From assembly GCA_963713495.1 (NCBI GenBank), contig CAVQLX010000018.1:58563-122562 (forward strand): 64,000 nt of DNA. The letters run 5' to 3'. Made by a program: the position numbers and the translations under genes. This document shows, piece by piece, positions 13,024-30,642 of the stretch. Source of the stretch: an uncultured delta proteobacterium (GTDB lineage Bacteria > Desulfobacterota > Binatia > DP-6). Positions within the stretch are counted from its first letter, which is position 1; every line of letters starts with the position of its first letter. The notes under the pieces were generated by a model. That model did no database searches and was not told where the DNA came from. It saw only the letters and a program-made list of their open reading frames with translations.

Positions 13024-14016
13024 GTGCAGCGCAGCTTACCCTTGCCGCCGAGCGTGATGACCAGCTCCTGGAGAGCGCGTTTCACCTTCGACGACGTCCG
13101 CGGTCGAAGCGAAGCCCTGGCGCGGGCGATCTGGATCGGCAGGCGCGCGGCCGAGGGCGGCTACCCGACGCTGATCGTCGGCGAGTCGGGCACGGGCAAG
13201 GAGCTGCTGGCGCACGGCATCCACAACGCCAGTCCGCTGCGCGACGGACCCTTCGTCGCGATCAACTGCGGCACGCTCAACGGCGAGCTGGCGGTGGCGG
13301 AGCTCTGCGGCTACGAGCCGGGCTCGTTCACCGGCGCCGATCGCCGGACGCACGCCGGCATCCTCGACGTCGCGCGCGACGGGACGCTGCTCCTCGACGA
13401 GCTGCAGGACATGCCGGCGACGGCGCAGAGCGCGCTGCTCCGGTTTCTCGAGACCGGGACGTTCGTCCGCGTCGGCGGGACGCAGCTCGTGCAATCGAGC
13501 GTGCGGGTGATCGCCACGCTGAATCTCGCCGTCGAGGAGGTCGAGCGCCGCGGGCTGGTGCGCGCCGACCTGCTCTACCGCCTCAACTGCGTGACCATCG
13601 AGGTGCCGCCGCTCCGCGCGCGGCGCGAGGACATCTGCCCGATCGCGGAGAAGTGCCTGCGCGAGGAGCTGCACTTCCTCGGCGAGGTCGACGAGCCGTT
13701 CTGGGAAGCCATCGCGACCTGCCCGTACGGCTGGCCCGGAAACGCCCGCGGGGTGCGCAACGTCCTCCTGAAGGCCATCCTGACGTCGACCGCCCACCGG
13801 CTCACCGCGGCCGACCTGCCGGCGTTCCTGTGGGACGCGGTGGCCCCAGGTCGGGAGGCGCCGGTCCGGCCGGAAGGGCGGACCCGGAACCACGACGAGG
13901 TGATCGCGCTGCGCGCAGTGCTGCGGGCGAACCGCGACAACGTCTCGGAGGCTGCGCGCAGCCTCGGGATTCACCGCTCGACGGTGTACCGCCGCCTGGC
14001 CCGCTCCGGCAGCTGA
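13024..14016 (+). CDS. sigma-54-dependent transcriptional activator, AAA+ and Fis-type HTH only (no receiver or sensor domain)
   Basis: Walker A GESGTGKE, sigma-54 contact loop GSFTGA, Walker B LLLDEL, and C-terminal HTH SEAARSLGIHRSTVYRRL. Alternative starts are GTG 13054 and ATG 13057. Confidence 0.9.
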   Translation: MQRSLPLPPSVMTSSWRARFTFDDVRGRSEALARAIWIGRRAAEGGYPTLIVGESGTGKELLAHGIHNASPLRDGPFVAINCGTLNGELAVAELCGYEPGSFTGADRRTHAGILDVARDGTLLLDELQDMPATAQSALLRFLETGTFVRVGGTQLVQSSVRVIATLNLAVEEVERRGLVRADLLYRLNCVTIEVPPLRARREDICPIAEKCLREELHFLGEVDEPFWEAIATCPYGWPGNARGVRNVLLKAILTSTAHRLTAADLPAFLWDAVAPGREAPVRPEGRTRNHDEVIALRAVLRANRDNVSEAARSLGIHRSTVYRRLARSGS

Positions 14017-14020
14017 CGGG

Positions 14021-14827
14021 TCAGCAGCGCGCGCTGCCGCCACGCGATGCGGGTGTGGCACCGGGGGACGGGTCGGCCGGCCGATTGCTCACGTCGCGGA
14101 TGGCGATGACGACGCCGATCACCGTGCCGTCGGGATCGCGGATCAGGGTGCTCGTCTCCTCGACGGCGATCCGGGTCCCGTCGCGTGCGACCAGCATGCC
14201 CTGCGCCGTCCCGCCGCTCGTCGGCACGGCGCCGGTGCTGAGCGCGCGCGGCTCCGAGGGCAGCGAGACCCGGACCACGTCGGACAGCGTCCGGCCGGCG
14301 GCTTCCGGCGCGCTCCAGCCGGTGAGCTGCTCCGCGGCGGGGTTCATGAAGCGGATGTGCCACTGCGCGTCGGTGGCGATGATCGTGTCGCCGAGGCTGC
14401 GCAGCGTGGCCGCCAGCCAGCGCTCGCTCTCCTGCAGCCGGCGCTGCAGGTCGTGGCGCTGGAGCGCCATCTCGATCACGATGTGCAGCTCGCGCTCCTC
14501 GAACGGTTTGAGCAGGTAGCCGAACGGCTCCGTGATGCGGGCACGCTGGAGGGTGGCCGGGTCCGCGAAGGCGGTCAGGTAGATCACCGGCACGCCGAAG
14601 CGATCGCGGATCGCGCGCGCGGCCTCGACACCGTCCATCTCGCCACGCAGGTGGATGTCCATCAGGACCAGATCCGGCCGCAGCTCCTCCACGCGGGTGA
14701 TCGCCTCGCTTCCCGTCGCCGCCACGGCGGCAACGGTGTAGCCGAGGCGGCCGAGGGTGGCGCGGATGTCGAGCGCGATGACGCCTTCGTCCTCGACGAT
14801 CAGGATGCTCGGTCGCGTGTGGTTCAT
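14021..14827 (-). CDS. response regulator, REC + PAS, no DNA-binding output
   Basis: True start is ATG 14827 ([15 protein letters not shown]), in an ATGA overlap with the kinase stop. Phospho-acceptor context is DLVLMDIHL. The PAS-like C-half contains [23 protein letters not shown]. Confidence 0.85.
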
Positions 14828-16065
14828 CGCGGGAAGCGAATGCGAAACTCGGTGCCGCCCTCCTGCACCAGTTCGAGCACGCCGTCCAGCTGATCGGTGA
14901 GGGCGCACACCAGCTGCATGCCGAGGGTCGCGGTCGTGCGGGGGTCGAAGCCGGCGGGCAGACCCACCCCGTCGTCCGCAACGGAGAGGAGATAGCGCTC
15001 GCCGTCCTCGGGCCGCAGATCCACCCGCACCTCGCCGCGCCGCTCCGGCGCGTACGCGTACTTGAGGCAGTTCGAGACCAGCTCGTTGATGATGAGTCCG
15101 AGCGGAACCGCGGCGTCGATGCCGAGGTGTACGTCCTCGACGGTGGTGCGGAGCGCGACTCCGCTCGTCTCGGGCTGGTAGGAGCGGAGCAGCAGGTCAC
15201 CGAGGCTGCGTACGTAGTCGGTGAAATCGAGGCGCGACAGATCGGCCGACTGGTAGAGCTTCTCGTGCACCAGGGCCATCGACCGGATGCGATTCCCGCT
15301 CTCCTTGAACATCTCGAGCGTCGCCGGGTCGCGCACGTGCGCCGACTGGAGGCGGAGGAGACTCGAGATGACCTGGAGATTGTTCTTGACCCGGTGGTGG
15401 ATCTCCTCGAGGAGCACTTCCTTCTCGCGCAGCGAGGCCTCGATCTGGTCGGTGCTCGCGCGCACCGCCTCCTCGGCGCGCTTCGACTCCGTGATGTCGT
15501 ACGCGATGCCCTGGATGAAGAGCGGATTCCCGAGCTCGTCGCGCACCACGCGTGCCTCGCCACGCACCCAGACGATTCCGCCGGCGCGCGTGAGCGCGCG
15601 GAACTCGGCGCGGAACGGGCCGCCCGTGCGGCACCCGCGTGCGAACTCGAGATGGCAGCAATCGCGATCGTCGGGATGGAGCTGGCGGAACCACAGGAAC
15701 GGGTTGCTCAGCCACTCCTCCTGCGAGAACCCGAGCAGCGCCTCGATCTGTGGACTCACGTAGAACTCGTGCAGGTCCTCGTCGAGCGCCGCCATGAAGG
15801 TGACCGCCGGGATCTGCTCGACGAGGGACCGGTAGCGCGCCTCCGCCTTCCAGCGCTGCTTCTCGGCAAGCGTCTCGGCGTCAGCCTCGCCCCGCGTGCG
15901 TGCGGGGGCTCCCTCGGGCCGCAGGATCATCGAGAAGGCCTGCGCCATCTCCGTGAGGATCGCCTCGGCATCCTCGACGCTCGCGATCGGGGGATCGCCG
16001 GGTGTCGTCTCGGGCGCCCGCTCGCGGAGGCCCAGCGCACGGGCAGACGGCCGTATGCCGATCAT
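14824..16065 (-). CDS. soluble PAS sensor histidine kinase (HisKA_2 type)
   Basis: ATG 16065 overlaps the large-subunit stop (ATGA). No TM helix. PAS segment is [15 protein letters not shown]...[15 protein letters not shown]-box is [17 protein letters not shown], and the ATPase segments are [12 protein letters not shown] and DDGVGLP. Confidence 0.85.
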
Positions 16066-17840
16066 CGCGGCGTTCCCGGGGACGCGCCGAAGATCGGCGA
16101 GTGCTCGGCCCGGATCACCCGTCCGCCGCCGGTGTACAGGTGGACCCCGCACGGGAGGCAGGGATCGAAGCTGCGCACGGTGCGCATGATGTCGATCCCC
16201 TTGAACCGCTCCGGTGGGTTCTCCTCGAAGAGGGGGGAGTTCTGCACCGCGTCCTCGTACGGGCCCGGCGTGCCGTGCACGTCGCGCGGGCTCGCGTTCC
16301 AGGGGGTGGGCGGGTAGGGGTGATAGTTGGCGATCTTGCCGTCGCGGATCACGAGATGGTGCGAGAGCATGCCGCGCACCGCCTCGTGGAAGCCGCAGCT
16401 GATGGCGTCGTCCGGCACCGTGAAGCTCGTGAAGGTCTCGGTGCGGCCCGCGTGGACGTCGGCGAGGGCGCGGTCGAGGAAGTGCAGGGCAGCCGCGGCG
16501 GCGTATGCCTGGAAGTAGCTGCGCGCCCGGTTGCGCTCCAGCGTGTTGCTCCAGGCGGGAATCTTCCACTCGAGCTCGGTCTCGGGCAGCGTCGCCGACC
16601 TGGGCAGGCGAATGACGACGCTGTGGCCGGTGGCCCGCAGCGTCCCGGTATCGACCAGGCCAGCGAGCGCCGTCACCCACAGGCGCGCGAGGGGACCGCC
16701 GCCCGTGTCGAGCGCCAGGAGGCGCCCCGTCTCGCGGTGCAGCCAGCGCGGCGACATCACCCAGGTGTAGCGCCCCGCGAAGTCACGCCGCTGCGGGCGC
16801 GGGATCGTGGTCTGGTTCCACGGATGGCGCTGATCGACGGGGTTGCCGAGCGGATCCGTGGTGACGAAGACCTCCTGGTCCTCCCAGTCGTCGTAGAACG
16901 AGCTCCCGAGCAGCACGCGGATACCGAGGTTGATGTCGATCAGGTCGGTGGTGAGCAGCTCGCCGTCGACCACCACGCCCGGGGTGACGAACATCGCCCG
17001 GCCCCACTCGCCCATGGTGCGGTAGTCGAAATCGCACGTGGTCGGGTCCTGGAACGAGCCGCCGCAGGCGAGCATCACCCGGCGCCGGCCGACCTCCTCG
17101 TAGCCGGGCAGCGCCTCGTAGAAGAAGTCGAAGAGGTCGTCGTGCAGCGGCACGACCCGCTTCACGAAGTCGACGTAGCGCATGAGCCGCGTCAGGTACT
17201 GCGTGAAGACCTGCACGTCGGCCGGGGTCCCGATGCCGCCCGGGTAGAGCGTCGAGGGATGGACGTGGCGGCCGCCGATCAGCGAGTACATCTCGCGGCT
17301 GACCCGGCTCATGTGGAGCGCCTCGCGGTAGAACTCGCCCTCGAGCGGGTTCAGCGCGCGCATGATGTCGGCGACGGTGCGGTAGCCGTGCACCGCGGCG
17401 TGCGGTGCGGCGGTGGTCTCCGCCCGGCGCAGCACCGACGGATTCGTCTCCCGCACCATGCGCTCGCAGAAGTCGACCCCGACCAGGTTCTCCTGGAAGA
17501 GGTTGTGGTCGAACATGTACTCGGCCGCCTCGGCCAGGTTGATCATCCAGTCGGCGAGCGGCGGCGGCTTCACGCGGAACGCCATGTTCTGCGCGTAGAC
17601 CGCGCACGTCGCGTGGTTGTCGCCGCAGATGCCGCAGATGCGGCTCGTGATGAAGTGCGCGTCGCGCGGGTCCTTGCCCTTCATGAAGACGCTGTAGCCA
17701 CGGAAGATGGACGACGTGCAGCGAGCATCGACGACCCGCCGCGCGGAGAAGTCGATGGTCGCATGGATGCCGAGGCTCCCGACGATGCGGGTGATCGGAT
17801 CCCAGGACATCTGGACGAGATGCGGCGCCGTCGTCGTCAT
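16062..17840 (-). CDS. [NiFe]-hydrogenase large subunit, group 1h/5-type, paralogue 1 (kinase-linked)
   Basis: ATG 17840 ([24 protein letters not shown]) overlaps the small-subunit stop (ATGA). L1 motif is [15 protein letters not shown] and L2 motif is [11 protein letters not shown], followed by the tail [25 protein letters not shown]. Confidence 0.9.
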
Positions 17841-18839
17841 GAGCGCTCGCGGCGCGTGCGCCACTCCGGCTCGCGATCGAGCGACTCGATCGTGAAGGCC
17901 CGCAGCGCCCGCACGGCGCGGCCGTACATGAGCACGGCCGACGACGACATCTTCGCGCCGGGCGGCTCGTCCATGAACGGCATGAACTTGTCCGGGAAGC
18001 CCGGCATCGTGCAGCCGATGCAGATGCCGCCGACGTTCGGGCAGCCGCCGACGCCGCCCATCCACCCGCGCTTCCCGACGTTGCAGCGCACGACCGGGCC
18101 CCAGCAGCCGAGCTTGACGATGCACTTCGGCGTGCCGTGGCCGGCGGCGAAGTCCGCCTGCTCGTAGTAGCCGCCGCGGTCGCAGCCCTCGTGCACGGTC
18201 TGGCTGAAGAGCCAGCGTGGGCGGAGGCAGTCGTCGAGCGGGATCATGGGCGCGCGACCCGCCGCCTGGCGGAGGAGGTAGAGGAGGGTCTCCATGAAGT
18301 TGTCGGGCTGGACGGGACAGCCCGGCACGCAGACGATGGGGATGCCCGCCTGCGAGCGCCACTCCCAGCCGAGGTAGTCGGGCAGTCCCATGCAGCCGGT
18401 CGGGTTGCCCTCCATCGCGTGAATGCCGCCGTAGGTGGCGCAGGTGCCGGCGGCCACCACGGCCCAGGCGTGCGGCGCGATGCGGTCGATCCAGGTGCAC
18501 GTCTTCACCGGCTGGCCGTAGGGTCCGTCGGAGCCCATGGCGGCCCAGTGACCCTCACCCGCCAGCGTCTCGTCCGGGAGCGATCCCTCGACGACGAGGA
18601 TGAAGGGCGCGCCCGTCCCCGTCGCGGCGAGACGGAATCGCGCCAGGAAGTCGTCTCCGGTCTCGTAGGAGAGGAAGCGGGTTGTGGAGCGTGATTCGCG
18701 GGATGCCCGGGAAGGCACCGGTGACGAGCTCCTCGAGGCTCGGCTGCGTCGCCGCGGTGATGGCCACGGTATCGCCGTCGCAGCCGAGGGCCGCGGTCAC
18801 CCACAGCACGTCGATCTCCTCCAACACCGACGAGTCCAT
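17837..18839 (-). CDS. [NiFe]-hydrogenase small subunit, paralogue 1, no Tat signal, apparent +1 frameshift
   Basis: The N-terminus MDSSVLEEIDVLWVTAALGCDGDTVAITAATQPS..PRITLHN is in the frame of ORF 18555-18893. The rest (FLSYETGDDF...GTCATYGGI...GCPNVGGICIGCTMPGFPDKF) is in ORF 17837-18718. Deleting one G of GGG at 18679-18681 gives HNRFLSYETGDDF, which aligns without gaps to HWLLIDYQCGDDF of paralogue 2. Confidence 0.8.
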
Positions 18840-20337: not shown

Positions 20338-21375
20338 ATGCCGCCCGATGAAGGACCGCTCGTCCATATCTTGTGGTTGAACTCCGGGCTGGGCTGCGAC
20401 GGCGACTCGGTCGCCCTGACCGCCGCCATGCAGCCGAGCATCGAGGAGATCGTCCTCGGCGCCCTGCCGGGATTGCCGCGGGTCGCCGTGCACTGGCTGC
20501 TGATCGACTACCAGTGCGGCGACGACTTCATGCAGTGGTTCTGGAAGGCGGACCGTGGCGAGATCGACCCGTTCGTCCTGGTGGTCGAGGGCTCGATCCC
20601 GAACGAGGACATCAAGAAGGAAGGCTACTGGGCCGCGATGGGCAACCGCGTCGAGGGCGGGGGACGAGACACCCAGCCCATGACGACCAGCGAATGGCTC
20701 GACCGCCTCTCCGCCAAGGCGTGGGCCGTGCTCGCGGTCGGGACGTGCGCCACCTACGGCGGCATCCACGCGATGGAGGGCAACCCGACGGGCGCCATGG
20801 GCGTCCCGGACTTCCTCGGCTGGAGCTGGAGATCCAAGGCCGGCAACCCGATCGTCTGCGTGCCGGGCTGTCCGATCCAGCCCGACAACCTGTCCGAGAC
20901 CATCCTCTACCTGCTCTATCAGGCGGCAGGCTCCGCCCCGACCATCCCGCTCGACGACCAGCTGCGACCGACCTGGCTCTTCGGCCAGACCGTGCACGAG
21001 GGCTGCGACCGCGCCGGCTACTACGAGCAGGGCGAGTTCGCGACCGAGTACGGCTCGCCGAAGTGCATCGTGAAGCTCGGCTGCTGGGGCCCGGTCGTCA
21101 AGTGCAACGTCGCCAAGCGCGGCTGGCTGAACGGCGTGGGCGGCTGCCCGAACGTGGGCGGGATCTGCATCGGCTGCACGATGCCGGGGTTCCCCGACAA
21201 GTTCATGCCGTTCATGGACGAGCCGCCCGGCGCCAAGGTGTCGACGCGCATGAGCGGGCTCCTCGGGACGGCGATCCGCACGCTGCGCGGGTTCACCGAG
21301 CACACGTTGGACGAGGAGCCCAGGTGGCGGCGCCGCGGCCGCGAGCTCACCACCGGCTACCAGCCGCAGTGGTGA
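20338..21375 (+). CDS. hhyS: [NiFe]-hydrogenase small subunit, group 1h/5-type, paralogue 2, no Tat signal
   Basis: RBS GAAGGGAGGGA precedes ATG 20338. The product reads MPPDEGPLVHILWLNSGLGCDGDS and carries Fe-S Cys motifs GTCATYGGI, CVPGCP and GCPNVGGICIGCTMPGFPDKF. Confidence 0.9.
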   Translation: MPPDEGPLVHILWLNSGLGCDGDSVALTAAMQPSIEEIVLGALPGLPRVAVHWLLIDYQCGDDFMQWFWKADRGEIDPFVLVVEGSIPNEDIKKEGYWAAMGNRVEGGGRDTQPMTTSEWLDRLSAKAWAVLAVGTCATYGGIHAMEGNPTGAMGVPDFLGWSWRSKAGNPIVCVPGCPIQPDNLSETILYLLYQAAGSAPTIPLDDQLRPTWLFGQTVHEGCDRAGYYEQGEFATEYGSPKCIVKLGCWGPVVKCNVAKRGWLNGVGGCPNVGGICIGCTMPGFPDKFMPFMDEPPGAKVSTRMSGLLGTAIRTLRGFTEHTLDEEPRWRRRGRELTTGYQPQW

Positions 21376-21396
21376 GTCACACAGGAGGATAGCGCA

Positions 21397-23193
21397 ATGG
21401 CGACGCCAGCGAAGACGGCCAGCGGCCTCGTGGAGATGAACTGGGATCCGATCACGCGCATCGTCGGGAGCCTCGGCATCTACACGAAGATCGACTTCTC
21501 GAAGAAGAAGGTCGCGGAGTGTCACAGCACCTCCTCGATCTTCCGCGGCTACAGCATCTTCATGAAGGGCAAGGACCCGCGCGACTCGCACTTCATCACG
21601 AGCCGCATCTGCGGCATCTGCGGCGACAATCACGCGACGTGCTCCTGCTACTGCCAGAACATGGCGTACGGCGTGAAGCCGCCGCACCTCGGCGAGTGGA
21701 TCGTCAATCTCGGCGAGGCGGCCGAGTACATGTTCGACCACAACATCTTCCAGGAGAACCTCGTCCTGGTCGATTTCTGCGAGCGCATGCTGAAGGAGAC
21801 CAATCCCGGCGTGCTCGAGAAGGCCAACAAGACCGAGGCGCCGAACGCCGCCGCGCACGGCTACAAGACGATCGGCGACATCATGCGCGCGGCCAATCCG
21901 CTGGAGGGCGAGTACTACCGCGAAGCGCTCCAGGTGAGCCGCTGGACGCGGGAGATGTTCTGTCTGATGGAGGGCCGCCACGTCCATCCATCCACCCTGT
22001 ACCCCGGCGGCGTCGGTACGGTGGCGACGCTCCAGCTCTTCACCGACTACCTGACGCGCCTCATGCGCTACGTCGAGTTCCTGAAGCGCGTCGTCCCGAT
22101 GCACGACGACCTCTTCGACTTCTTCTACCAGGCCCTGCCGGGCTACGAGCAGGTCGGCCAGCGCCGCGTGCTGCTCGGCTGCTGGGGCTCCTTCCAGGAC
22201 CCCGAGACGTGCAACTTCCGCTACCGCGACATGACCGACTGGGGACGGAAGATGTTCGTCACCCCGGGCGTCGTGGTCGACGGCAAGCTCGTCACCACCG
22301 ACCTGGTGCAGATCAACCTCGGCATCCGGATCCTGCTCGGGCACTCGTACTACGACGACTGGGAAGACCAGGAGATGTTCGTCACCAAGGACCCGCTGGG
22401 GAACCCGGTGGATCGCCGCCATCCGTGGAACCAGCACACCAATCCGCGGCCGCAGAAGCGCGACTTCGACGGCAAGTACAGCTGGGTGATGTCGCCGCGG
22501 TGGTACGACGGCAAGGATCATCTCGCCCTCGACACGGGCGGCGGCCCGATCGCGCGCCTGTGGGCCACCGCGCTGGCGGGGATCGTCGGCAGCGCGCAGC
22601 GCCCGACGAACGGCTACGTCCAGGCGACGGGCAACAGCGTCGTGCTCAACCTGCCGAAGAGCGCGACCAAGGGCCCGGTCACGTTCGAGTGGAAGATCCC
22701 GCAGTGGTCGAACGCGATCGAGCGGGACCGCGCGCGGACGTACTTCCAGGCCTACGCCTGCGCGTCGGCGCTCTACTTCATCGAGGAGGCGCTGAAGGAG
22801 GTCCGCGCCGGGAACACCAAGACCTGGGAGCCGTTCAAGGTGCCCGACGAGGGTGTCGGGTGCGGCTTCACCGAGGCGGTTCGCGGCGTGCTGTCGCACC
22901 ACATGGTGATCCGCGGCGGGAAGATCGCCAACTATCACCCGTATCCGCCCACCCCGTGGAACGGAAACCCGCGCGACGTGTACGGCACCGCGGGGCCGTA
23001 CGAGGACGCGGTGCAGAACACGCCGATCTTCGAGGAGAACCCGCCCGAAAAGTTCAAGGGCATCGACATCATGCGGGCCGTGCGCAGCTTCGACCCCTGC
23101 CTGCCGTGCGGGGTGCACATGTACCTCGGCAAGGGGAAGGTGCTCGAGCGGATGCACTCGCCGTCGATGCTGAACATGCCCGACGGGAAGTGA
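21397..23193 (+). CDS. hhyL: [NiFe]-hydrogenase large subunit, group 1h/5-type, paralogue 2
   Basis: RBS AGGAGG. 598 aa. L1 motif is [15 protein letters not shown] and L2 is [11 protein letters not shown], with C-terminal tail MYLGKGKVLERMHSPSMLNMPDGK. Confidence 0.95.
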   Translation: MATPAKTASGLVEMNWDPITRIVGSLGIYTKIDFSKKKVAECHSTSSIFRGYSIFMKGKDPRDSHFITSRICGICGDNHATCSCYCQNMAYGVKPPHLGEWIVNLGEAAEYMFDHNIFQENLVLVDFCERMLKETNPGVLEKANKTEAPNAAAHGYKTIGDIMRAANPLEGEYYREALQVSRWTREMFCLMEGRHVHPSTLYPGGVGTVATLQLFTDYLTRLMRYVEFLKRVVPMHDDLFDFFYQALPGYEQVGQRRVLLGCWGSFQDPETCNFRYRDMTDWGRKMFVTPGVVVDGKLVTTDLVQINLGIRILLGHSYYDDWEDQEMFVTKDPLGNPVDRRHPWNQHTNPRPQKRDFDGKYSWVMSPRWYDGKDHLALDTGGGPIARLWATALAGIVGSAQRPTNGYVQATGNSVVLNLPKSATKGPVTFEWKIPQWSNAIERDRARTYFQAYACASALYFIEEALKEVRAGNTKTWEPFKVPDEGVGCGFTEAVRGVLSHHMVIRGGKIANYHPYPPTPWNGNPRDVYGTAGPYEDAVQNTPIFEENPPEKFKGIDIMRAVRSFDPCLPCGVHMYLGKGKVLERMHSPSMLNMPDGK

Positions 23194-23210
23194 GGGTATC
23201 CGGGGACGCC

Positions 23211-24038
23211 ATGGGCGACGTCCGGCGAGCGGGTGAGCGCATCGAGCGGCTGCTCGAGGAGATCCGTGCGAGCGCGAGCCCGCCGTGCTGGCAGCGGGTC
23301 GACGAGCTGATGCGTCTCGTCGTCGAGCTGTACGGCGCCGGCTTCGCGCGCATCCTCGAGATCGTCGGCGACGACGCGGACGCGGCCGGCCTGCGCGCGA
23401 GGCTGAGCGCGGACGAGCTGGTGGCGAGCCTGCTCCTCGTGCACGGGCTCCACCCGGAGGACATCCCGACTCGACTCCGGACGGCGCTCGCCCGCGTGCG
23501 GCCCTACCTCGGCTCGCACGGGGGCGACGTCGAGGTGGTCGCGCTGGACGAGCGCGCGGGAGCCGTGCTCCTGCGCATGACGGGGAGCTGCGACGGCTGC
23601 CCGTCGTCCGCGATGACGGTCCAGCTCGCCGTCGAGAGCGCGATTCACGAGCTGGTCCCGGAGATCGGTCGGATCGAGGTCGAGGGAATCACCGAGACGG
23701 CGCCGGCCGATCCGGCGAGCTCGTGGATCCGTCTCGAGCGTGACGCGATGCCGGGCGTCCCGGCCCTCGCCAGCCGCGAGGTCACCGGGGAGCGCATCCT
23801 GCTCTGCCGTCTCGGCGAGACGCTGTACGCGTACCGCGACCGGTGTGCCGCCTGCGGCGCCGCGCTGGCCGCGGGCACGCTCGACGGATCGCTCCTCGGC
23901 TGTCCCGCGTGCGGGCAGCGCTTCGATGTGCGTCGTGCCGGGCGCGCCGTGGAGCGCCCCGAGGTTCACCTGGTGCCGGTGCCGCTCCTCCAGGACGAGT
24001 CCGGCATCCGGATCGCGCTCGCGGAGGCGCACGCGTGA
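23211..24038 (+). CDS. NifU-C-like Fe-S protein fused to a Cys-rich (Rieske-like) C-terminal domain, hydrogenase-associated
   Basis: ATG 23211. The NifU-like segment is VRPYLGSHGGDVEVV..MTGSCDGCPSS. It is followed by YRDRCAACGAAL..LLGCPACGQRFD. Confidence 0.7.
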   Translation: MGDVRRAGERIERLLEEIRASASPPCWQRVDELMRLVVELYGAGFARILEIVGDDADAAGLRARLSADELVASLLLVHGLHPEDIPTRLRTALARVRPYLGSHGGDVEVVALDERAGAVLLRMTGSCDGCPSSAMTVQLAVESAIHELVPEIGRIEVEGITETAPADPASSWIRLERDAMPGVPALASREVTGERILLCRLGETLYAYRDRCAACGAALAAGTLDGSLLGCPACGQRFDVRRAGRAVERPEVHLVPVPLLQDESGIRIALAEAHA

Positions 24039-24715
24039 CCAGCGGCGGCGGAGCGCCCCGAACGGAGCGGCGTCCCGGCCCGGCCCTCGGGGTGCTGGGA
24101 CGCTTTCGCGGGCAGGCGCCGAGGCCGGCGCCCGGCGAGCGCTGCGAGATGTGCGCCGCCACGATCGGCGACGAGCACTCGCACGTCGTGAACGTCGAGA
24201 TACGCAACCTCCTCTGCACCTGCCGCGCGTGCTACCTGCTCTTCACCCGCACCGGCGCGGCGCAGGGCAAGTACCGCGCCGTGCCCGATCGCTACCTCCA
24301 TCTCCCGGCGTTCGTCCTCGGCGCGGCGGCCTGGGATGCGCTCCAGATCCCGGTGCGCATGGCGTTCTTCTTCTCGAACTCGAGCCTCGGCCGCGTCGTC
24401 GCCTTCTACCCGAGCCCGGCGGGGGCGACCGAGTCGCTCCTGCCGCTCGACGCCTGGCAGGCGCTGCTCGACGGGAACCCCGTCCTCGCGAGCATGGAGC
24501 CCGACGTGGAGGCGCTGCTGGTCCACGGCCGTCGAGGCGCCGACTCGTTCGACTGCTTCGTGGTGCCGATCGACGCCTGCTACGAGCTCACCGGGATCGT
24601 CCGGCGCCGCTGGAAGGGGTTCGACGGCGGCGAGGAGGCCTGGCGCGACATCGACGAGTTCTTCGCGCGCCTGCGCGCACGGAGCCGCGTGCCGCCGGCC
24701 GAGGCGGCGGGATGA
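24035..24715 (+). CDS. conserved hypothetical protein of group 1h hydrogenase clusters
   Basis: GTGA overlap with the previous gene. Contains CEMCAATIGDEHSHVV..LLCTCRACYLLF. From memory this matches the family PGAP labels DUF5947 next to hhyL; unverified. Confidence 0.6.
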   Translation: MTSGGGAPRTERRPGPALGVLGRFRGQAPRPAPGERCEMCAATIGDEHSHVVNVEIRNLLCTCRACYLLFTRTGAAQGKYRAVPDRYLHLPAFVLGAAAWDALQIPVRMAFFFSNSSLGRVVAFYPSPAGATESLLPLDAWQALLDGNPVLASMEPDVEALLVHGRRGADSFDCFVVPIDACYELTGIVRRRWKGFDGGEEAWRDIDEFFARLRARSRVPPAEAAG

Positions 24716-25356
24716 GTCAGATCGCCTTCACGGTGCTCGACGCGGCGCCGGTGCCGTACGCGGCGACTCCCACGCTCGCGGTCCGCCTCCACCTCGAGGC
24801 GCCGGCGGGCGAGACCATCCATTCGATCGCGCTGCGCTGCCAGATCCGGATCGAGCCCCAGCGCCGGCGCTACTCGGCGGACGAGGAAGCGCGGCTGCTC
24901 GAGCTCTTCGGGGAGACCCCACGCTGGGGCGACACGCTGAAGCCGTTCCTGTGGACGCACGTGTCGACGATGGTCGTCGGGTTCGCGGGCGGCACCGACG
25001 TCGAGCTGCACGTTCCCTGCACGTACGACCTCGACGTGGCGGCGGCGAAGTACTTCCATGCCCTCGGCGACGGGGAGATCCCGTTGATCCTGCTCTTCAG
25101 CGGGACGGTCTTCGCGAAAGGCGACGGCGGGGCGCTGCGCGTGACCCAGATTCCGTGGGACCGGGAGGCGCGCTTGCGGCTGCCGGTCCGGACGTGGCGC
25201 GAGCTCGTCGATCGCTACTTCCCGAACAGCGGCTGGCTCCGTCTCCGGCGCGACACCCTGGACGCGCTGCTGCGGGTGAAGGCACGCCGCGCGCTCGTCA
25301 CCTGGGACGACGTCCTCGCCGAGCTGCTTCGTGCCGCCGGGGAGGAGGCCGCGTGA
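24712..25356 (+). CDS. conserved hypothetical protein of group 1h hydrogenase clusters
   Basis: ATGA overlap. Begins MSQIAFTVLDAAPVPYAATPTLAVRLHLE. From memory it resembles the DUF6084 family; unverified. Confidence 0.55.
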   Translation: MSQIAFTVLDAAPVPYAATPTLAVRLHLEAPAGETIHSIALRCQIRIEPQRRRYSADEEARLLELFGETPRWGDTLKPFLWTHVSTMVVGFAGGTDVELHVPCTYDLDVAAAKYFHALGDGEIPLILLFSGTVFAKGDGGALRVTQIPWDREARLRLPVRTWRELVDRYFPNSGWLRLRRDTLDALLRVKARRALVTWDDVLAELLRAAGEEAA

Positions 25357-26716
25357 GCACCGAGCGGGCACGCGCCGTCGCCGACGCGGTCCTCTACGAG
25401 GGCTACGTGCTCTATCCGTACCGCGCGTCGGCGCGGAAGAACCAGGTGCGCTGGCAGTTCGGGGTGCTGGCGCCGCGGGACGTGGAGCGAGGCCGGCGGC
25501 TGCGAGCCGTGCTGGATGCAGACCGAGTTCCTGCTCGAGCCAGGGGCGGGCGCCGTGCTCGACGGCACGCTGCGCTTCCTCCAGGCGCAGCGGCGACTGA
25601 TCGAGGAGGCCGTCGACGGCGGCTTCCGGAGCGTCGAGCGCCTCGACGTCGACGGCCGTCTGTGGACGTCGTGGGACGAAGGCGTCGAGCGCGAGATCGC
25701 GCTGACGGTGGCGGCCGACGGCACGACGGCGATCACGGTGCCGTTCGCGTTCCCGGGCGAGGGCGAGACCGAGCCGATCGTCGCGAGCGACGGCCGCCTG
25801 GTGGGACGCGTCGTGCGCGAACGGATGCCGCTCGCGGGGTCCGTCGCCATCGAGACGGAGCGCCTCGCGGAGCAGCCGGCACTGGTCCGCGCGCGCCTCA
25901 CGGTGCGCAACCTGAGCCCGTGCGACGCGCCGGCCGCCGCGCGCGACCAGGCGCTGGGCTCGTTCCTGGTCGGCACGCACCTGCTGCTGGCGATGTCGCG
26001 CGGCCAGTTCGTCTCGCTGCTCGATCCCCCGGCCGCGGCACGCGAGGCGGCGGCGCAATGCGAGAACGTCCGCACGTGGCCGGTGCTGATCGGCGCGGCG
26101 GGCGAGCGAACGGTCATGCTGTCGTCGCCGATCATCCTGCAGGACTATCCGGAGATCGCGCCCGAGAGCCCGGGCGATCTCTTCGACGCGACCGAGATCG
26201 ACGAGATCCTGACGCTCCGCACGATGGCGCTCACGGACGACGAGAAGCGCGAGGCGCGCGCGACCGATCCACGCGCCGCCGCGATCATCGACCGGGTGGA
26301 TGCGATGCCCGCGGAGATTCTCGAGCGCCTGCACGGCGCCATCCGCTCGCTCCGTCCGGTGGCCGGCCCCGGCAGCGGAGCCCGTGGCGGAGCCGGATCC
26401 GTTCGCGACGCCCTGGTGGGACCCCGGCGCCGATGCGTCCGTGTCCCCGGAGACGGATTCGATCGAGGTGCACGGCGTGCCGGTCGCGAAGGGCAGCCGC
26501 GTGCGGCTGCGCCCCGGCGTGCGGCGCTCCGACGCACAGGACATCTTCCTCGACGGGCGCGTCGCACGCGTGGAAGCGGTGCTGTTCGACGTCGAGGATC
26601 ACGGCTACCTCGCGGTGACGCTCGAGGACGACCTCGCGGCCGACATGCTGCAGCGCCACGGACGCTACCTGTACTTCGCACCCGACGAGGTCGAGCCGCT
26701 GGGGGAGGGCGCGTGA
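25353..26716 (+). CDS. conserved hypothetical hydrogenase-cluster protein, read in three frames (two apparent +1 frameshifts)
   Basis: GTGA overlap at the start. Segment 1 is LYEGYVLYPYRASARKNQVRWQFGVLAP. Segment 2, in the frame of ORF 25516, is CEPCWMQTEFLLEP...ILERLHGAIRSLRPVAG. Segment 3, in the frame of ORF 26300, is PAAEPVAEPDPFATPWWDPGAD...YLYFAPDEVEPL. The shifts lie within 25470-25500 (candidate GGG 25477-25479) and at CCCC 26367-26370. Confidence 0.55.
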
Positions 26717-27249
26717 GCCCGCGCGTGCTGGTGGCCGGAGTCGGCAACGTCTTCCTCGGCGACGACGGGTTCGGCGTCGAGGTGGCGCGACGGCTCGTGG
26801 GCGAGGCGTTCCCGGAGGGCGTGCAGGTCGCGGACTTCGGCATCCGCGGCGTGCACCTCGCGTACGAGCTGCTGGACGGCTACGACCTGCTCATCCTGGT
26901 CGACGCCGCGCCGCGCGGCGAGGCGCCCGGGACGGTCTTCGTGCTCGAGCCGGACTTCGGGGGCTCGGACGGTGTTGCGCGCGGGGACAGCGGCTTCCTG
27001 CTCGACGCACACAGCCTGGACCCCGAGGTCGTCCTCGGCATCCTCGCCGATCTCGGCGGCACGGTCGGCCGGGTCGTCATCGTCGGCTGCGAGCCCGCCG
27101 AGGTCGTCGAGCGGATGGGCCTGAGCGCACCGGTGTCGCACGCGGTCGACGAGGCCGCGCGCGTGGTCCGCGAGCTGATCGCACGGGCCTGTGACGAAAC
27201 GTCCACCGCGGCGCCGGAAGACGCCGCCAAGCGAAGGGAGGCTCCCTGA
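26713..27249 (+). CDS. hupD: hydrogenase maturation endopeptidase (HupD/HyaD family)
   Basis: GTGA overlap. Contains VLVAGVGNVFLGDDGFGVEVARRL, LILVDA and LDAHSL, typical of the family. Confidence 0.85.
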   Translation: MSPRVLVAGVGNVFLGDDGFGVEVARRLVGEAFPEGVQVADFGIRGVHLAYELLDGYDLLILVDAAPRGEAPGTVFVLEPDFGGSDGVARGDSGFLLDAHSLDPEVVLGILADLGGTVGRVVIVGCEPAEVVERMGLSAPVSHAVDEAARVVRELIARACDETSTAAPEDAAKRREAP

Positions 27250-27350
27250 TGCTACGGATGCTGGCCGCCGCGGTCGCGCTCGGGGTCGCGTACGTCGTCG
27301 TGAACTCGCTCCCCGACGTCGCGCGGTACCTCAAGATCCGCCGGATGTGA
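27249..27350 (+). CDS. 33-aa small membrane peptide MLRMLAAAVALGVAYVVVNSLPDVARYLKIRRM
   Basis: Below the ORF-track size cut-off. Its ATG shares the A of the protease TGA (TGATG). It has one hydrophobic helix plus a basic tail. It resembles small proteins I recall next to actinobacterial hydrogenase proteases (DUF6893-like; unverified). Confidence 0.45.
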   Translation: MLRMLAAAVALGVAYVVVNSLPDVARYLKIRRM

Positions 27351-27363
27351 TCACGGTCCGATC

Positions 27364-27876
27364 GTGAGTCGCTTCCGGATCGTGCCCGAACGATCGAGAA
27401 TCTGGGTGGACGCGCGCTCGAGCCTGCACCCGATCCACGTCGAGACGACGGGGCTGCGCGGCCAGCTCGACGCCACCGTGGCCGACGGTGCCCTCGTGGC
27501 CGGGGGATCGACCACGGGGTCCATCGAGATCGAGGTCGATCGCATGAAGTCGGGGAACGTCCTCTACGACCGCGAGCTGGAGCGCCGGCTCGAGGCGAGA
27601 AAGTACCCGTTCATTCGCGGCTCGGTGCGCGAGGTCACGGCGCTCGGCGACGGCCAGCGGTACCGGGTGCTCGGACAGCTCGAGTTTCACGGCGTCGCGC
27701 GGCCGGTCGAGGGCGAGGTGCGGCTGCGCGTCGTCGACGAGCGCACGCTGGAGATCGAGGGTGAACGCGTCTTCGACCTCCGCGACTACGGGCTCGAGCC
27801 GCCACGCATCCTGATGCTGAAGGTGTATCCCGAGGTGCGCGTGCGCGCCCAGGTGATCGCGGAGCAGGAGCCGTAG
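27364..27876 (+). CDS. YceI-like domain protein
   Basis: 170 aa, GTG start. The pattern [25 protein letters not shown]...[14 protein letters not shown]...[10 protein letters not shown] is YceI-like. Confidence 0.6.
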
Positions 27877-27878
27877 CG

Positions 27879-28148
27879 ATGTGCCTCGGCATCCCGGGAG
27901 AGGTCGTCGATGTGCGCGACGACGCTGGGCTCCGCATCGGGACGGTGCGGTTCGCGGGCATCACGCGCGACGTCTGTCTCGACTACGTCCCGGACGCCGC
28001 CGTGGGGGAGTACGTGCTGGTGCACGTGGGCTTCGCCATCTCGAAGATCGATCCCGAGGAAGCGGCGCGCACGTACCGGGTCCTGGAGGAGCTTGGCCAG
28101 ACGGGCGAGCTCACCGCCGACCGGGAGCTCGTGGAGCCTCCACCATGA
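27879..28148 (+). CDS. hypC: hydrogenase maturation chaperone HypC/HupF family
   Basis: [11 protein letters not shown]-terminus with the essential Cys2, and [12 protein letters not shown]. Confidence 0.9.
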
Positions 28149-29263
28149 AGTATCTCGACGAATATCGCGACGGTGACATCGCAGGCGGCCTGCGCCGCGC
28201 CATCGCCGACACCGCCACCCGCCCCTGGGTCCTGATGGAGGTGTGCGGCGGCCAGACGCACTCGATCGTCCGCTACGGGATCGATCGCATGATCCCGCAG
28301 ACGATCGAGCTCGTGCACGGTCCGGGCTGTCCCGTGTGCGTCACCCCCCTCGAGATGATCGATCGCGCGCACGCGATCGCGCGCCACGCGGACGTGATCT
28401 TCACGTCGTTCGGGGACATGTTGCGCGTTCCGGGGTCGCATGGCGACCTCCTCACCCTGAAGGGCAGGGGCGCCGACGTGCGCGTGGTGTACTCGCCGCT
28501 CGACGCGCTCCGCATCGCACGTGACAACCCGCAGCGGCGCGTCGTCTTCTTCGGGATCGGCTTCGAGACCACGGCGCCCGCGAACGCGATGGCCGTCTTC
28601 CAGGCCCGCCGGCAGGGCCTCGGCAACTTCTCGATGCTCGTGTCGCACGTGCTCGTCCCACCCGCCATGGCGGCCATCCTCGAGTCACCGGACAACCGCG
28701 TGCAGGCGTTCCTCGGTCCCGGCCACGTGTGCGCCATCATGGGCTGCGGCGAGTACGAGGAGCTCTGCGAGCGCCACCGCGTGCCGATCGTGATCACGGG
28801 CTTCGAGCCGCTCGATCTGCTGGAAGGCATCCTGATGGCGGTCCGGCAGCTGGAGGCGGGCCGCGCGGAGGTGGAGAACCAGTACGCGCGCGCCGTCTCG
28901 CACGACGGCAACCAGGCGGCGCGCGACGTCGTCACCCAGGTCTTCGAGGTCGGCGACCGCAAGTGGCGAGGCGTCGGCGCCATCCCTCGCTCCGGGTACC
29001 GGCTGCGCGACGAGTACCGCATGCACGACGCCGAGCGGCTCTTCGCGGTCGAGGACATCGCCACCGCCGAGCCGGAGATCTGCATCAGCGGCCTCATCCT
29101 GCGCGGGCAGCGAAAGCCCTCCGACTGCCCGGCGTTCGGCCGGCAGTGCACCCCCGAGCATCCGCTCGGCGCCACGATGGTGTCGGCCGAGGGCGCCTGT
29201 GCGGCGTACTACCAGTACGGACGCCATCGCGGCGCACCGAGGGAGGCCGGCGATGTCGCTTGA
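28145..29263 (+). CDS. hypD: hydrogenase maturation protein HypD
   Basis: ATGA overlap. Begins MKYLDEYRD and contains [25 protein letters not shown] and PGHVCAIMG. Confidence 0.95.
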
Positions 29264-30320: not shown

Positions 30321-30357
30321 GATGAACGGCTCGACGCAGGACGCCCGGGGGGCGTGC

Positions 30358-30642
30358 TCAGCCGGGAGGCCGGATGCCGGGCGGCACCATCTCGGCCAGC
30401 GGGAGCACCTCGTAGCGCGAGTAGTTGTAGACCGGCGAGCGCGCCAGGAGCATGTCCAGCTCCTCGTTCGAGGTCACGTCGTAGATCCACGCGCCGCCGT
30501 GCGTCCCGGGGATGTGGTAGCGGGCGACGACCTTGCCCTGCGTCTCGAGCGGCGTGGCGTAGTCCGCCATCCGCATCACGGACTGGAGCACCTCGCGTGA
30601 CAGGAGGGCGATGTCGATGCGCCAGATGACCAGGAATTTCAT
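30358..30642 (-). CDS. small muconolactone-isomerase-like / DUF3303-like protein
   Basis: 94 aa, MKFLVIWRIDI...GAWIYDVTSNEELDMLLARSPVYNYSRYEVLPLAEM. The fold-family call is from sequence pattern only. It lies downstream of the second hypC-like gene. Confidence 0.45.
   Translation of the reverse strand: MKFLVIWRIDIALLSREVLQSVMRMADYATPLETQGKVVARYHIPGTHGGAWIYDVTSNEELDMLLARSPVYNYSRYEVLPLAEMVPPGIRPPG

What the first reader, a model, noticed from the sequence alone, without database searches (positions are those of the whole stretch)
14021..18839. Group 1h/5-type [NiFe]-hydrogenase paralogue translationally coupled to a PAS histidine kinase and a REC-PAS regulator: candidate new kind of H2 sensor
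Seen: four minus-strand genes overlap by ATGA at every junction (17840/17837, 16065/16062, 14827/14824). They are a small subunit without a Tat signal, a large subunit, a soluble PAS-HisKA_2 kinase and a REC-PAS regulator. The large subunit carries [12 protein letters not shown] and [11 protein letters not shown], which I recall as the L1/L2 signatures of group 5/1h high-affinity hydrogenases. It keeps a C-terminal tail after the last His. Established: the known H2 sensors (HoxBC/HupUV, group 2b) signal through the PAS-containing kinases HoxJ/HupT, and their large subunits lack that tail. Inference: a 1h-derived hydrogenase has been recruited as, or doubles as, the input module of a two-component system. 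As far as I know, no such sensing architecture has been described for group 1h enzymes. A second 1h paralogue with the full maturation set lies 1.5 kb away behind a sigma-54-type promoter and is a plausible target.
Basis: partly seen in the sequence, partly recalled or inferred. Interest (0 to 1): 0.85.

Follow-up and report, generated by a model that had tools for sequence, protein, structure and literature searches.

The report
Hydrogenase paralogue wired to a kinase
A second, divergent copy of the hydrogenase that soil bacteria use to consume atmospheric hydrogen is co-transcribed with a signalling kinase here and in several other phyla, so it is probably an undescribed hydrogen or redox sensor that controls the working enzyme.

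Summary
Four minus-strand genes overlap by ATGA: a small subunit S1, a large subunit L1, a soluble PAS_3-HisKA_2 kinase and a REC-PAS regulator. L1 is clearly group 1h. It scores 1072 bits to HofG (PDB 5AA5), carries the 1h L1/L2 motifs and keeps a 25-residue C-terminal tail.

The S1 frameshift is one extra T at 18675/18676. At least three more frameshifts lie in conserved genes of this window, and the S1 orthologues are intact. An assembly error is therefore the likelier cause.

The linkage is conserved. All 9 kinase-family contexts I examined lie next to 1h hydrogenase genes. Kinase-linked small subunits form one clade (bootstrap 74), lose the canonical C-terminal LTTGY tail and keep all FeS cysteines. 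Kinase-linked large subunits also form one clade (bootstrap 88).

In about 35 Acidobacteriota loci, a tail-less small subunit, a PAS_3 kinase and a NarL-type regulator sit directly upstream of hhyS-hhyL, with no second large subunit.

A sigma-54 promoter before the canonical hhy operon is conserved in five related loci.

I found no published description. No function has been tested. I rate this a new variant of the regulatory-hydrogenase idea.

The parts
17837..18839 (-). S1: sensor-type group 1h small-subunit paralogue. It has no Tat signal, the CDGD proximal-cluster motif and all FeS cysteines, and it lacks the C-terminal ELTTGY tail. It is interrupted by one extra T at 18675/18676.
   Evidence: sequence and domains; indel against L001 and L003; clade and signature; dN/dS 0.09-0.25
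16062..17840 (-). L1: group 1h large-subunit paralogue, 592 aa. It has both CxxC pairs in the 1h L1/L2 motifs and a 25-aa C-terminal extension. Its start overlaps the S1 stop (ATGA).
   Evidence: clade and fixed substitutions; dN/dS
14824..16065 (-). Histidine kinase, 413 aa, taken to be soluble (no transmembrane prediction run). It has an N-terminal helix motif ([15 protein letters not shown]), PAS_3, HisKA_2 (H-box HHRVKNN) and HATPase_c. Its start overlaps the L1 stop (ATGA).
   Evidence: homologues and contexts; motif
14021..14827 (-). Response regulator, 268 aa: REC (acidic pocket, phospho-acceptor Asp and conserved Lys present) plus PAS. It has no DNA-binding domain. Its start overlaps the kinase stop (ATGA).
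13057..14016 (+). Sigma-54 enhancer-binding protein with no receiver or other regulatory N-domain. It has the AAA+ sigma-54 interaction domain (GESGTGKE, GSFTGA) and HTH_8. It converges on the regulator gene with a 4-nt gap.
   Evidence: conserved next to the regulator in L001-L004
20275..20290 (+). Sigma-54-type promoter candidate (CGGCACGAGACGTGCT; GG-N10-GC), 48 nt upstream of the S2 start codon.
   Evidence: equivalent sites upstream of S2 in L001, L003, L004, L005
20160..20189 (+). Candidate upstream activator site: GTCGCG / GTCGCAG / CGCGAC repeats about 90-110 nt upstream of the promoter. Similar repeats occur in L001, L003 and L004.
   Evidence: read by eye from aligned upstream regions; not tested statistically
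20338..23193 (+). Presumed target: canonical group 1h structural genes S2 (20338-21375, with the ELTTGYQPQW tail) and L2 (21397-23193).
23190..34705 (+). hhy accessory and maturation genes following S2 and L2. On the + strand these are NifU-Rieske, DUF5947, DUF6084, a conserved unknown gene (frameshifted twice here), HycI protease, YceI, HypC, HypD, HypE, HypF, HypA and HypB. A MIase-like ORF (30358-30642) and a second HypC (30658-30900) lie on the minus strand.

Best explanation
S1 and L1 form a regulatory [NiFe]-hydrogenase of group 1h descent, and it serves as the input of a signalling pathway.

Proposed pathway:
1. The four genes are made together as one translationally coupled unit.
2. 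The S1-L1 dimer carries a NiFe site and three FeS clusters. It binds the N-terminal helix and PAS_3 region of the kinase.
3. The H2-dependent redox state of the dimer changes kinase autophosphorylation.
4. The kinase controls the REC-PAS regulator, which cannot bind DNA.
5. That regulator acts in trans on the neighbouring REC-less sigma-54 activator.
6. The activator drives the sigma-54 promoter of the canonical hhy operon (S2, L2, accessory and Hyp genes).

Shown: gene order and overlaps, domain content, group membership, conservation of the linkage, clade structure, purifying selection, and the conserved promoter.

Inferred: the physical S1-kinase complex, H2 as the signal, the regulator-to-activator contact, and the direction of regulation.
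For: 1. ATGA coupling of all four genes.
2. L1 is a bona fide 1h large subunit with intact metal ligands. S1 keeps all FeS cysteines.
3. The same S-L-kinase-regulator unit, a convergent sigma-54 activator and a divergent canonical hhy operon occur in four related contigs, at 70-96% kinase identity to the window. A colinear version occurs in a Binataceae MAG (L081).
4. More distant kinase homologues (53-61% identity) again sit next to 1h subunit genes. One case is a stand-alone S-L-kinase-hybrid kinase-REC cluster with no hhy accessory genes nearby. In total, 9 of 9 contexts are hydrogenase-linked.
5. Kinase-linked small subunits form one clade (NJ bootstrap 74/100). In the clade consensus they lack the LTTGY tail that canonical HhyS and HofK carry; two clade members whose operons carry their own maturation genes keep it.
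6. Kinase-linked large subunits form one clade (bootstrap 88/100).
7. The Binatia L1 group changes 35 of 263 columns that are invariant in 85 other 1h large subunits. Other groups change 0-12. It also has 16 group-fixed substitutions. Yet dN/dS is only 0.09-0.24, which indicates changed rather than lost function.
8. In one Binatia MAG the small subunit and the kinase lie in one uninterrupted reading frame.
9. The PAS_3 input is joined to three different transmitter types in three phyla, always at hydrogenase loci. A short N-terminal motif is shared.
10. A sigma-54-type promoter lies upstream of S2 in 5 of 5 loci where the hhy operon diverges from the sensor unit. There is none upstream of S1.
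Against: - No experiment exists, and no structural test of an S1-kinase interface was possible.
- L1 keeps its C-terminal extension and so needs the protease and Hyp machinery of the other operon. This is also what a second catalytic isoenzyme would look like.
- PAS_3 is a very large generic family: 203,173 representatives at E<=1e-3. Pairwise distances do not cleanly separate hydrogenase-linked PAS_3 domains from background. The kinase could therefore sense something else.
- In Acidobacteriota there is no dedicated large subunit, so the conserved input may not be an H2-binding unit at all.
- The regulator-to-activator step rests only on adjacency in four closely related loci. The activator is absent from the fetched parts of L005 and L081.
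- Trees are neighbour-joining with moderate support.
- S1 is frameshifted in this assembly.
Confidence: 0.6

Rival explanations
1. S1-L1 is simply a second catalytic uptake isoenzyme, for example one with different affinity, oxygen response or partner. The kinase and regulator co-transcribed with it sense another cue through their PAS domains, such as oxygen, redox state or a metabolite. They regulate hydrogenase genes without using S1-L1 as the input.
For: - L1 keeps all NiFe ligands and the C-terminal extension typical of matured catalytic enzymes.
- L1 is 74-78% identical to large subunits that sit in complete operons, as in Paludisphaera mucosa and a Myxococcaceae MAG.
- In those organisms the PAS_3 kinases flank the catalytic operon without a separate sensor subunit.
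- PAS_3 is a generic sensory fold.
Against: - S1 has lost the C-terminal tail conserved in catalytic small subunits.
- No NifU-Rieske, DUF5947, DUF6084 or protease genes accompany S1-L1 here or in the stand-alone cluster L086.
- The L1 group breaks many otherwise invariant positions.
- The kinase gene is translationally coupled to L1 in every related locus.
- A possible in-frame small subunit-kinase fusion exists.
Confidence: 0.2
2. The constant sensory element is the tail-less small subunit acting as an FeS redox relay. It reports electron flow from the working hydrogenase, or the state of its electron acceptor, to the kinase. It would not be a dedicated H2 sensor. In Binatia the extra large subunit merely stabilises it.
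For: - About 35 Acidobacteriota loci have S'-kinase-NarL regulator directly upstream of hhyS-hhyL with no second large subunit in the 10-kb flanks.
- One Binatia MAG also has S'-kinase without L1.
- All three FeS-cluster ligand sets are conserved in S'.
Against: - Small subunits of [NiFe]-hydrogenases are not known to be stable without a large subunit (my own knowledge). S' may simply borrow the single HhyL, which would again make an H2-sensing dimer.
- In this window and in L086/L087 a dedicated, selectively maintained large subunit is present.
Confidence: 0.14
3. The S1-L1 unit is a decaying remnant. S1 is a true pseudogene, and the kinase and regulator act independently of it.
For: S1 is frameshifted in this window. 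L1 evolves two to three times faster than L2.
Against: - S1 orthologues are intact in L001, L003, L004 and L086.
- S1 dN/dS against L001 is 0.09.
- The window has further frameshifts in the housekeeping yjeF/nnr gene and two in a conserved hhy accessory gene. This points to indel errors in the assembly.
Confidence: 0.04

Closest known systems
Group 2b regulatory hydrogenase systems: HoxBC-HoxJ-HoxA of Cupriavidus necator (Ralstonia eutropha) and HupUV-HupT-HupR of Rhodobacter capsulatus
   Same: A cytoplasmic, Tat-less [NiFe] small/large dimer is encoded with a soluble PAS-containing histidine kinase. The output controls the energy-conserving hydrogenase operon. In C. necator this goes through an NtrC-family activator at a sigma-54 promoter. 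(Group 2b definition: PMC5037454; PMC12319191. Details of HoxJ and HoxA come from my own knowledge of Lenz & Friedrich 1998 and Buhrke et al. 2004.)
   Different: - The subunits here are group 1h, not 2b.
- L1 keeps the C-terminal extension, which HoxC lacks.
- S1 has lost a C-terminal tail, whereas HoxB has gained a C-terminal peptide needed for HoxJ binding (own knowledge).
- The kinase is of the HisKA_2/HWE-like type and hits no HoxJ/HupT model.
- The regulator is REC-PAS without a DNA-binding domain, and the sigma-54 activator is a separate, REC-less protein.
Group 1h/5 high-affinity uptake hydrogenase: Hhy of Mycobacterium smegmatis and HofKG ('actinobacterial hydrogenase') of C. necator, PDB 5AA5
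   Same: L1 scores 1072 bits to HofG. The next best structure scores about 160 bits. L1 has the 1h L1/L2 motifs. S1 has the CDGD proximal-cluster motif and no Tat signal.
   Different: - There are no accessory genes in the S1-L1 operon.
- The tail present in HofK and S2 is missing from S1.
- There are group-specific substitutions at otherwise invariant large-subunit positions.
- The genes are fused in an operon with a two-component system.
Putative sensory hydrogenases defined by genomic linkage: [NiFe] group 2c (diguanylate cyclase-linked) and [FeFe] groups C1-C3 (kinase-, chemotaxis- or phosphatase-linked)
   Same: The sensory role is inferred from conserved linkage of hydrogenase genes to signalling proteins (HydDB table, PMC5037454).
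   Different: The hydrogenase lineage is different. HydDB lists 1h only as an atmospheric H2 scavenger.
Sigma-54 activators lacking a regulatory domain and controlled in trans: PspF-PspA, HrpRS-HrpV and the PAS protein NifL acting on NifA
   Same: The activator here consists of only the AAA+ sigma-54 domain and HTH_8. It lies next to a PAS-containing signalling protein that has no DNA-binding domain.
   Different: No homology of the REC-PAS regulator to PspA, HrpV or NifL was shown. The interaction is inferred from adjacency only (own knowledge for the comparators).

Membership tests
[NiFe]-hydrogenase group 1h/5 (large subunit) | L1 motif [12 protein letters not shown] and L2 motif [11 protein letters not shown] around the four NiFe-binding cysteines | tested here: met
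   Both motifs are present verbatim in L1. PMC5364354 states they are 1h/5-specific.
[NiFe]-hydrogenase group 1h/5 (large subunit) | Closest relatives are known 1h enzymes rather than other groups | tested here: met
   L1 scores 1072 bits to HofG (5AA5). It scores at most 162 bits to group 1 periplasmic or membrane-bound enzymes and 126 bits to group 2a Huc. It is 71-79% identical to hundreds of 1h large subunits. No formal HydDB run was possible.
[NiFe]-hydrogenase group 1h/5 (small subunit) | No Tat signal, a proximal cluster with three Cys plus one Asp (CDGD in place of CxGC), and three FeS-cluster ligand sets | tested here: met
   S1 N-terminus is MDSSVLEEIDVLWVTAALGCDGDT. All cysteine columns are shared with canonical HhyS. 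That Asp is the ligand comes from my memory of the 5AA5 paper.
[NiFe]-hydrogenase group 1h/5 (operon level) | Accompanied by the NifU-Rieske (HhaA-like), DUF5947, DUF6084 and protease genes | tested here: not met
   The S1-L1 operon contains only the kinase and the regulator. These accessory genes follow S2-L2 instead.
[NiFe]-hydrogenase group 2b (HoxBC/HupUV H2 sensors) | Large subunit of the group 2 lineage that lacks the C-terminal extension | tested here: not met
   L1 is group 1h and has 25 residues after the last His.
[NiFe]-hydrogenase group 2b (HoxBC/HupUV H2 sensors) | Genetic linkage to a soluble PAS histidine kinase that controls hydrogenase expression | tested here: met
   Linkage is met. 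Control of expression was not tested.
[NiFe]-hydrogenase group 2b (HoxBC/HupUV H2 sensors) | H2-dependent signalling through a sensor-kinase complex | not testable with these tools
   This needs biochemistry or genetics.
HisKA_2 / HWE-type histidine kinases | HisKA_2 dimerisation/phospho-acceptor domain with the H-R-x-K-N box, followed by HATPase_c | tested here: met
   PF07568 at E=1.7e-29 and PF02518 at E=7.5e-11. [11 protein letters not shown] is present. The best NCBIfam hit is PhyK, but far below its cut-off (128 against 750 bits), so the kinase is not a PhyK orthologue.
Bacterial enhancer-binding proteins (sigma-54 activators) | AAA+ sigma-54 interaction domain with Walker A and a GAFTGA-type loop, plus a C-terminal HTH | tested here: met
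   PF00158 at E=2.6e-48 and HTH_8; GESGTGKE and GSFTGA are present. No N-terminal receiver or sensory domain is present: the AAA+ domain starts at residue 21 of the translated ORF.
Sigma-54 promoter | GG-N10-GC (-24/-12) elements upstream of the regulated gene | tested here: inconclusive
   The site at 20275-20290 has two mismatches to TGGCAC-N5-TTGCW. That many matches is expected by chance in the window. Positional conservation in five loci supports it. No rpoN gene was looked for.

The most novel reading that the evidence does not exclude
A widespread and so far unrecognised class of hydrogen (or hydrogenase-redox) sensors is derived from the high-affinity group 1h enzyme. Its constant core would be a tail-less small-subunit paralogue bound to a PAS_3 kinase. 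A dedicated large subunit accompanies it in Binatia and relatives. In Acidobacteriota it would borrow the single HhyL. This class would be the missing regulator of atmospheric H2 oxidation in dominant soil phyla (Acidobacteriota, Binatia, Planctomycetota, Myxococcota), and it might sense H2 at trace concentrations in air.
Probability: 0.45. Interest if true: 0.88.

Novelty: new variant of a known kind. Interest (0 to 1): 0.78.

Why it matters
Group 1h hydrogenases consume a large share of atmospheric H2 and help soil bacteria survive starvation. [quoted passage not shown]

The only established H2 sensors are group 2b enzymes of hydrogen-growing Proteobacteria. A sensor built from the oxygen-insensitive, high-affinity 1h scaffold would be a second, independent origin of H2 sensing. 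It occurs in the phyla that dominate soils, and it gives concrete genes to test.

It would also be a candidate part for H2 biosensors that work in air. The orphan small-subunit version in Acidobacteriota raises a new question: can one large subunit serve both a catalytic and a signalling small subunit?

Tried and rejected
1. Exact look-up of L1 in the contig index found nothing. Context came from kinase homologues instead.
2. L002, the closest contig (96% kinase identity), is too full of indels (111 gaps in 6 kb) to settle the frameshift.
It returned 1h loci at 71-78% identity rather than the closest orthologues. This turned out to be useful as a cross-phylum sample.
4. I first read the 40-50% PAS identity between Binatia and Acidobacteriota kinases as proof of a dedicated module. 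An exhaustive search showed PAS_3 is a huge family with many 40-50% matches. A tree put all hydrogenase-linked PAS_3 domains in one split with only 2 of 160 background segments, but nearest-neighbour distances did not separate them. I therefore downgraded this evidence. I rely on synteny and the N-terminal motif.
5. I looked for a sigma-54 promoter upstream of S1 and found none under the strict pattern.
6. Sigma-70 promoter and terminator scans of 13900-20400 found nothing.
7. Conserved Cys or His in the kinase PAS domain that might bind a cofactor: the CCH...C cluster of the window's kinase is not conserved in other phyla.
8. Structure prediction of an S1-kinase complex was not attempted. The tool folds single chains, accepts only window or search-hit sequences, and returns no interface measure.
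Assignment to Candidatus Binatia rests on named, more distant relatives.
10. Rfam and tRNA scans of the window were empty.

Full report
**What is in the window.**
The window is about 72% G+C. Four genes lie on the minus strand between 14021 and 18839.
- S1 is a [NiFe]-hydrogenase small subunit at 17837-18839.
- L1 is a large subunit of 592 aa at 16062-17840.
- The kinase is 413 aa at 14824-16065.
- The response regulator is 268 aa at 14021-14827.

Each junction is an ATGA start/stop overlap. Pfam assigns Oxidored_q6 and NiFe_hyd_SSU_C to S1 and NiFeSe_Hases to L1. It assigns PAS_3, HisKA_2 and HATPase_c to the kinase, and Response_reg plus PAS to the regulator. The regulator has no DNA-binding domain.

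**Which hydrogenase group.**
L1 contains [12 protein letters not shown] and [11 protein letters not shown]. PMC5364354 gives these as the conserved L1/L2 motifs of group 1h/5. L1 scores 1072 bits against HofG of the Cupriavidus 'actinobacterial' hydrogenase (5AA5). It scores 162 bits or less against every other solved hydrogenase, including group 2a Huc. The crystallised HofG ends at the His that is residue 567 of L1, so L1 carries a 25-residue extension that would need proteolytic maturation. S1 has no twin-arginine signal and has the CDGD motif. Group 2b membership is excluded.

**The frameshift.**
S1 is split between two frames. Alignment with two orthologues shows one extra T: CCGCTTCCTC against CCGC-TCCTC, with the TT at 18676/18675. 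I then compared the window gene by gene with the syntenic contig L001 and with L005. That comparison shows further frameshifts. One lies in the housekeeping yjeF/nnr gene at about 11482. Two lie in a conserved hhy accessory gene at about 25480 and 26400-26490. All other genes are colinear at 84-99% identity. S1 orthologues are intact, and S1 dN/dS against L001 is 0.09. An assembly indel is therefore the most likely explanation, but only reads can settle it.

**The neighbourhood.**
An HpcH-like gene follows upstream of S1 on the other strand. After it comes a complete canonical 1h locus:
- structural genes S2 (20338-21375) and L2 (21397-23193)
- accessory genes NifU-Rieske, DUF5947, DUF6084, a conserved unknown gene, HycI protease and YceI
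- maturation genes HypC, HypD, HypE, HypF, HypA and HypB

A second HypC gene lies on the minus strand. L1 and L2 are 71% identical.

It encodes a sigma-54 activator made only of the AAA+ sigma-54 domain (GESGTGKE, GSFTGA) and an HTH_8. It has no receiver or sensory domain.

A GG-N10-GC site, CGGCACGAGACGTGCT, lies 48 nt upstream of the S2 start. As a pattern match it is no better than chance in this window. However, equivalent sites lie upstream of the S2 orthologue in L001, L003, L004 and L005, and none lies upstream of S1. GTCGCG/GTCGCAG repeats about 100 nt further upstream recur in the related loci. I read these by eye only.

**Is the linkage conserved?**
A search with the kinase found close relatives. 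I looked up the genomic context of eight of them.
- Four contigs, at 70-96% kinase identity to the window, show the same arrangement: S1-L1-kinase-regulator, the convergent sigma-54 activator and a divergent canonical hhy operon.
- One Binatia MAG (L005) has the kinase and regulator next to the canonical operon. It has an S1-type small subunit directly upstream of the kinase, no L1, and no stop codon between the two.
- Three more distant homologues (53-61% identity) are again hydrogenase-linked. L086 is S-L-kinase followed by a REC-GAF-HisKA hybrid kinase and a REC, with no hhy accessory genes within 8 kb. L087 is L-kinase-hybrid kinase. L088 has the kinase converging on an S-L-unknown-HycI-HypA operon.

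With the window itself, 9 of 9 contexts are hydrogenase-linked.

**A cross-phylum sample.**
A genome scan with L1 returned 80 loci around 1h large subunits from many phyla. I searched them with the window's proteins.
- About 35 Acidobacteriota loci show a constant order. They come from Terriglobia, Acidobacteriaceae, Bryobacterales, Blastocatellia and Pyrinomonadaceae.
- The order is a second small subunit S', then a kinase, then a NarL/LuxR-type regulator, then hhyS-hhyL and the accessory genes. There is no second large subunit in the 10-kb flanks.
- In L009 the kinase is PAS_3-PAS-HisKA_3-HATPase_c and the regulator is REC-GerE.
- None of the Burkholderiales, Verrucomicrobiota, Chloroflexota or Actinomycetota loci in the sample has this unit.
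- A Planctomycetota MAG (L041) has S-L-NifU-HycI followed by a PAS_3-HisKA-REC-REC-Hpt hybrid kinase.
- Cultured Paludisphaera mucosa has a single complete hhy operon flanked on both sides by PAS_3 kinases, 54-55% identical to the window's input region.

The same input domain is thus joined to three transmitter types, always at 1h loci.

**Are the linked subunits a distinct kind?**
In a neighbour-joining tree of about 120 small subunits, all kinase-linked ones fall in one clade apart from canonical HhyS, with bootstrap 74/100.
- The clade consensus lacks the C-terminal ELTTGY.P..Y tail. Canonical HhyS, S2 and HofK all carry it. Two clade members whose operons carry their own maturation genes keep it.
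- It has GDTIAM instead of GDSVSI after the proximal-cluster motif.
- It keeps every FeS cysteine.

The large subunits from S-L-kinase units are the five Binatia L1 sequences plus L086, L087 and L088. They form a clade with bootstrap 88/100, sister to a Myxococcaceae enzyme. L2 groups with actinomycete and Limnocylindria enzymes. L1 is therefore not a recent copy of L2.

The Binatia L1 group alters 35 of 263 columns that are invariant in the other 85 large subunits. Other groups of similar size alter 0-12. It also has 16 fixed substitutions at nearly invariant sites, including E97D, G103A, I114L, F185Y, E189G and V491M/L. Some of these are shared with L086-L088. dN/dS is 0.09-0.24 for L1 and 0.09-0.25 for S1, against 0.03-0.14 and 0.03-0.16 for L2 and S2. 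Selection is relaxed or shifted, but it is clearly purifying.

**A control that lowered one claim.**
The PAS_3 region is 40-55% identical between phyla, and I first took this as a dedicated module. An exhaustive search showed that PAS_3 is a very large family: 203,173 representatives at E<=1e-3, many of them multi-PAS proteins at 35-50% identity. In a tree with the 160 most similar background segments, all 52 hydrogenase-linked PAS_3 domains fall in one split that holds only two background segments. Nearest-neighbour distances, however, do not separate them. A short N-terminal motif is more specific. It reads [DE]-A-x-x-[IL]-L-x-x-[LM]-A-x-x-F and lies 35-45 residues before the PAS. Kinases from Binatia, Acidobacteriota, Myxococcota and Planctomycetota share it whenever PAS_3 is their first domain.

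**Most likely mechanism.**
S1-L1 is a regulatory hydrogenase of 1h descent. It binds the N-terminal region of the kinase and modulates it according to H2 or its own redox state, by analogy with HoxBC-HoxJ. The kinase acts on the REC-PAS regulator. That regulator has no DNA-binding domain, so it probably acts in trans on the adjacent REC-less sigma-54 activator. The activator then drives the sigma-54 promoter of the canonical hhy operon. I put the first half (hydrogenase as kinase input) at about 0.6 to 0.65. I put the second half (regulator to activator to promoter) at about 0.45. Nothing here is experimental.

**The rivals.**
- A second catalytic isoenzyme with unrelated regulators (0.2).
- A small-subunit FeS redox relay rather than an H2 sensor (0.14). 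The large-subunit-less acidobacterial units and L005 prompt this idea.
- Gene decay (0.04).

**Comparison with what is known.**
Functionally the closest system is the group 2b sensor with HoxJ/HupT. This locus fails the defining features of 2b in both lineage and lack of a C-terminal extension, so it is not a member. It meets the sequence definition of group 1h but not the usual 1h operon content. HydDB lists 1h only as an atmospheric H2 scavenger. Two acidobacterial hydrogenase papers do not mention a second small subunit or a kinase. A 2026 paper calls the sensors of atmospheric H2 oxidation unknown. Seven full-text searches found no description of a 1h-linked kinase. The searchable library excludes most subscription journals.

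**Verdict.**
I rate it a new variant of a known kind, namely regulatory hydrogenase plus two-component system. It is probably widespread in soil phyla and directly testable. Interest is 0.78.

Noticed in passing
L007-L085 (for example L009:4957-8562): About 35 Acidobacteriota loci carry a second, tail-less 1h small subunit, then a PAS_3-PAS-HisKA_3 kinase and a NarL-type regulator. These lie directly upstream of hhyS-hhyL, and no second large subunit is present in the 10-kb flanks.
   Followed up: partly
L005:8903-11251: In a Binatia MAG (GCA_050247415.1) the S1-type small subunit and the kinase lie in one reading frame with no stop between them. Only the 416-aa kinase is annotated. This is either a natural fusion or an error.
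   Followed up: partly
window ~11481-11483; ~25480; ~26400-26490: Further frameshifts relative to orthologues. One is in the housekeeping yjeF/nnr gene and two are in the conserved unknown hhy accessory gene between DUF6084 and HycI. They suggest indel errors in this assembly.
   Followed up: yes
window 38921-41344 (+): A single 807-aa ORF joins an MnmA-type tRNA thiolase (tRNA_Me_trans) to a MiaB-like UPF0004 + radical SAM enzyme. It is either a real fusion or two genes merged by another indel.
   Followed up: no
window 18993-19946 (+): An HpcH/HpaI aldolase/citrate-lyase-like gene sits between the two divergent hydrogenase operons. It is kept there in L001, L002 and L004, in two of them with a CoA-transferase gene. 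Its relation to hydrogen metabolism is unknown.
   Followed up: no
window 46721-49737: A 704-aa ORF with no Pfam match lies in a stretch of unusual AT skew (-0.13 to -0.17). Next to it is an IS110-family transposase fragment (48640-49737, minus strand). This may be an insertion.
   Followed up: no
window 55678-56558 (+): A small ORF is followed by a RES-domain protein. It looks like a RES-type toxin-antitoxin pair.
   Followed up: no
L089 (Paludisphaera mucosa, JARRAG010000002.1:1814043-1835827): This cultured planctomycete has one complete hhy operon bracketed by two PAS_3 kinases of the same kind. One is a 996-aa hybrid. REC-HD, REC-GGDEF and REC-Hpt proteins lie nearby. It is a tractable organism for testing the link.
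   Followed up: partly
window 27406-27876 and 30358-30900: The hhy/hyp cluster contains a YceI-like gene, a muconolactone-isomerase-like small ORF and a second HypC on the opposite strand. YceI is also present in L005.
   Followed up: no
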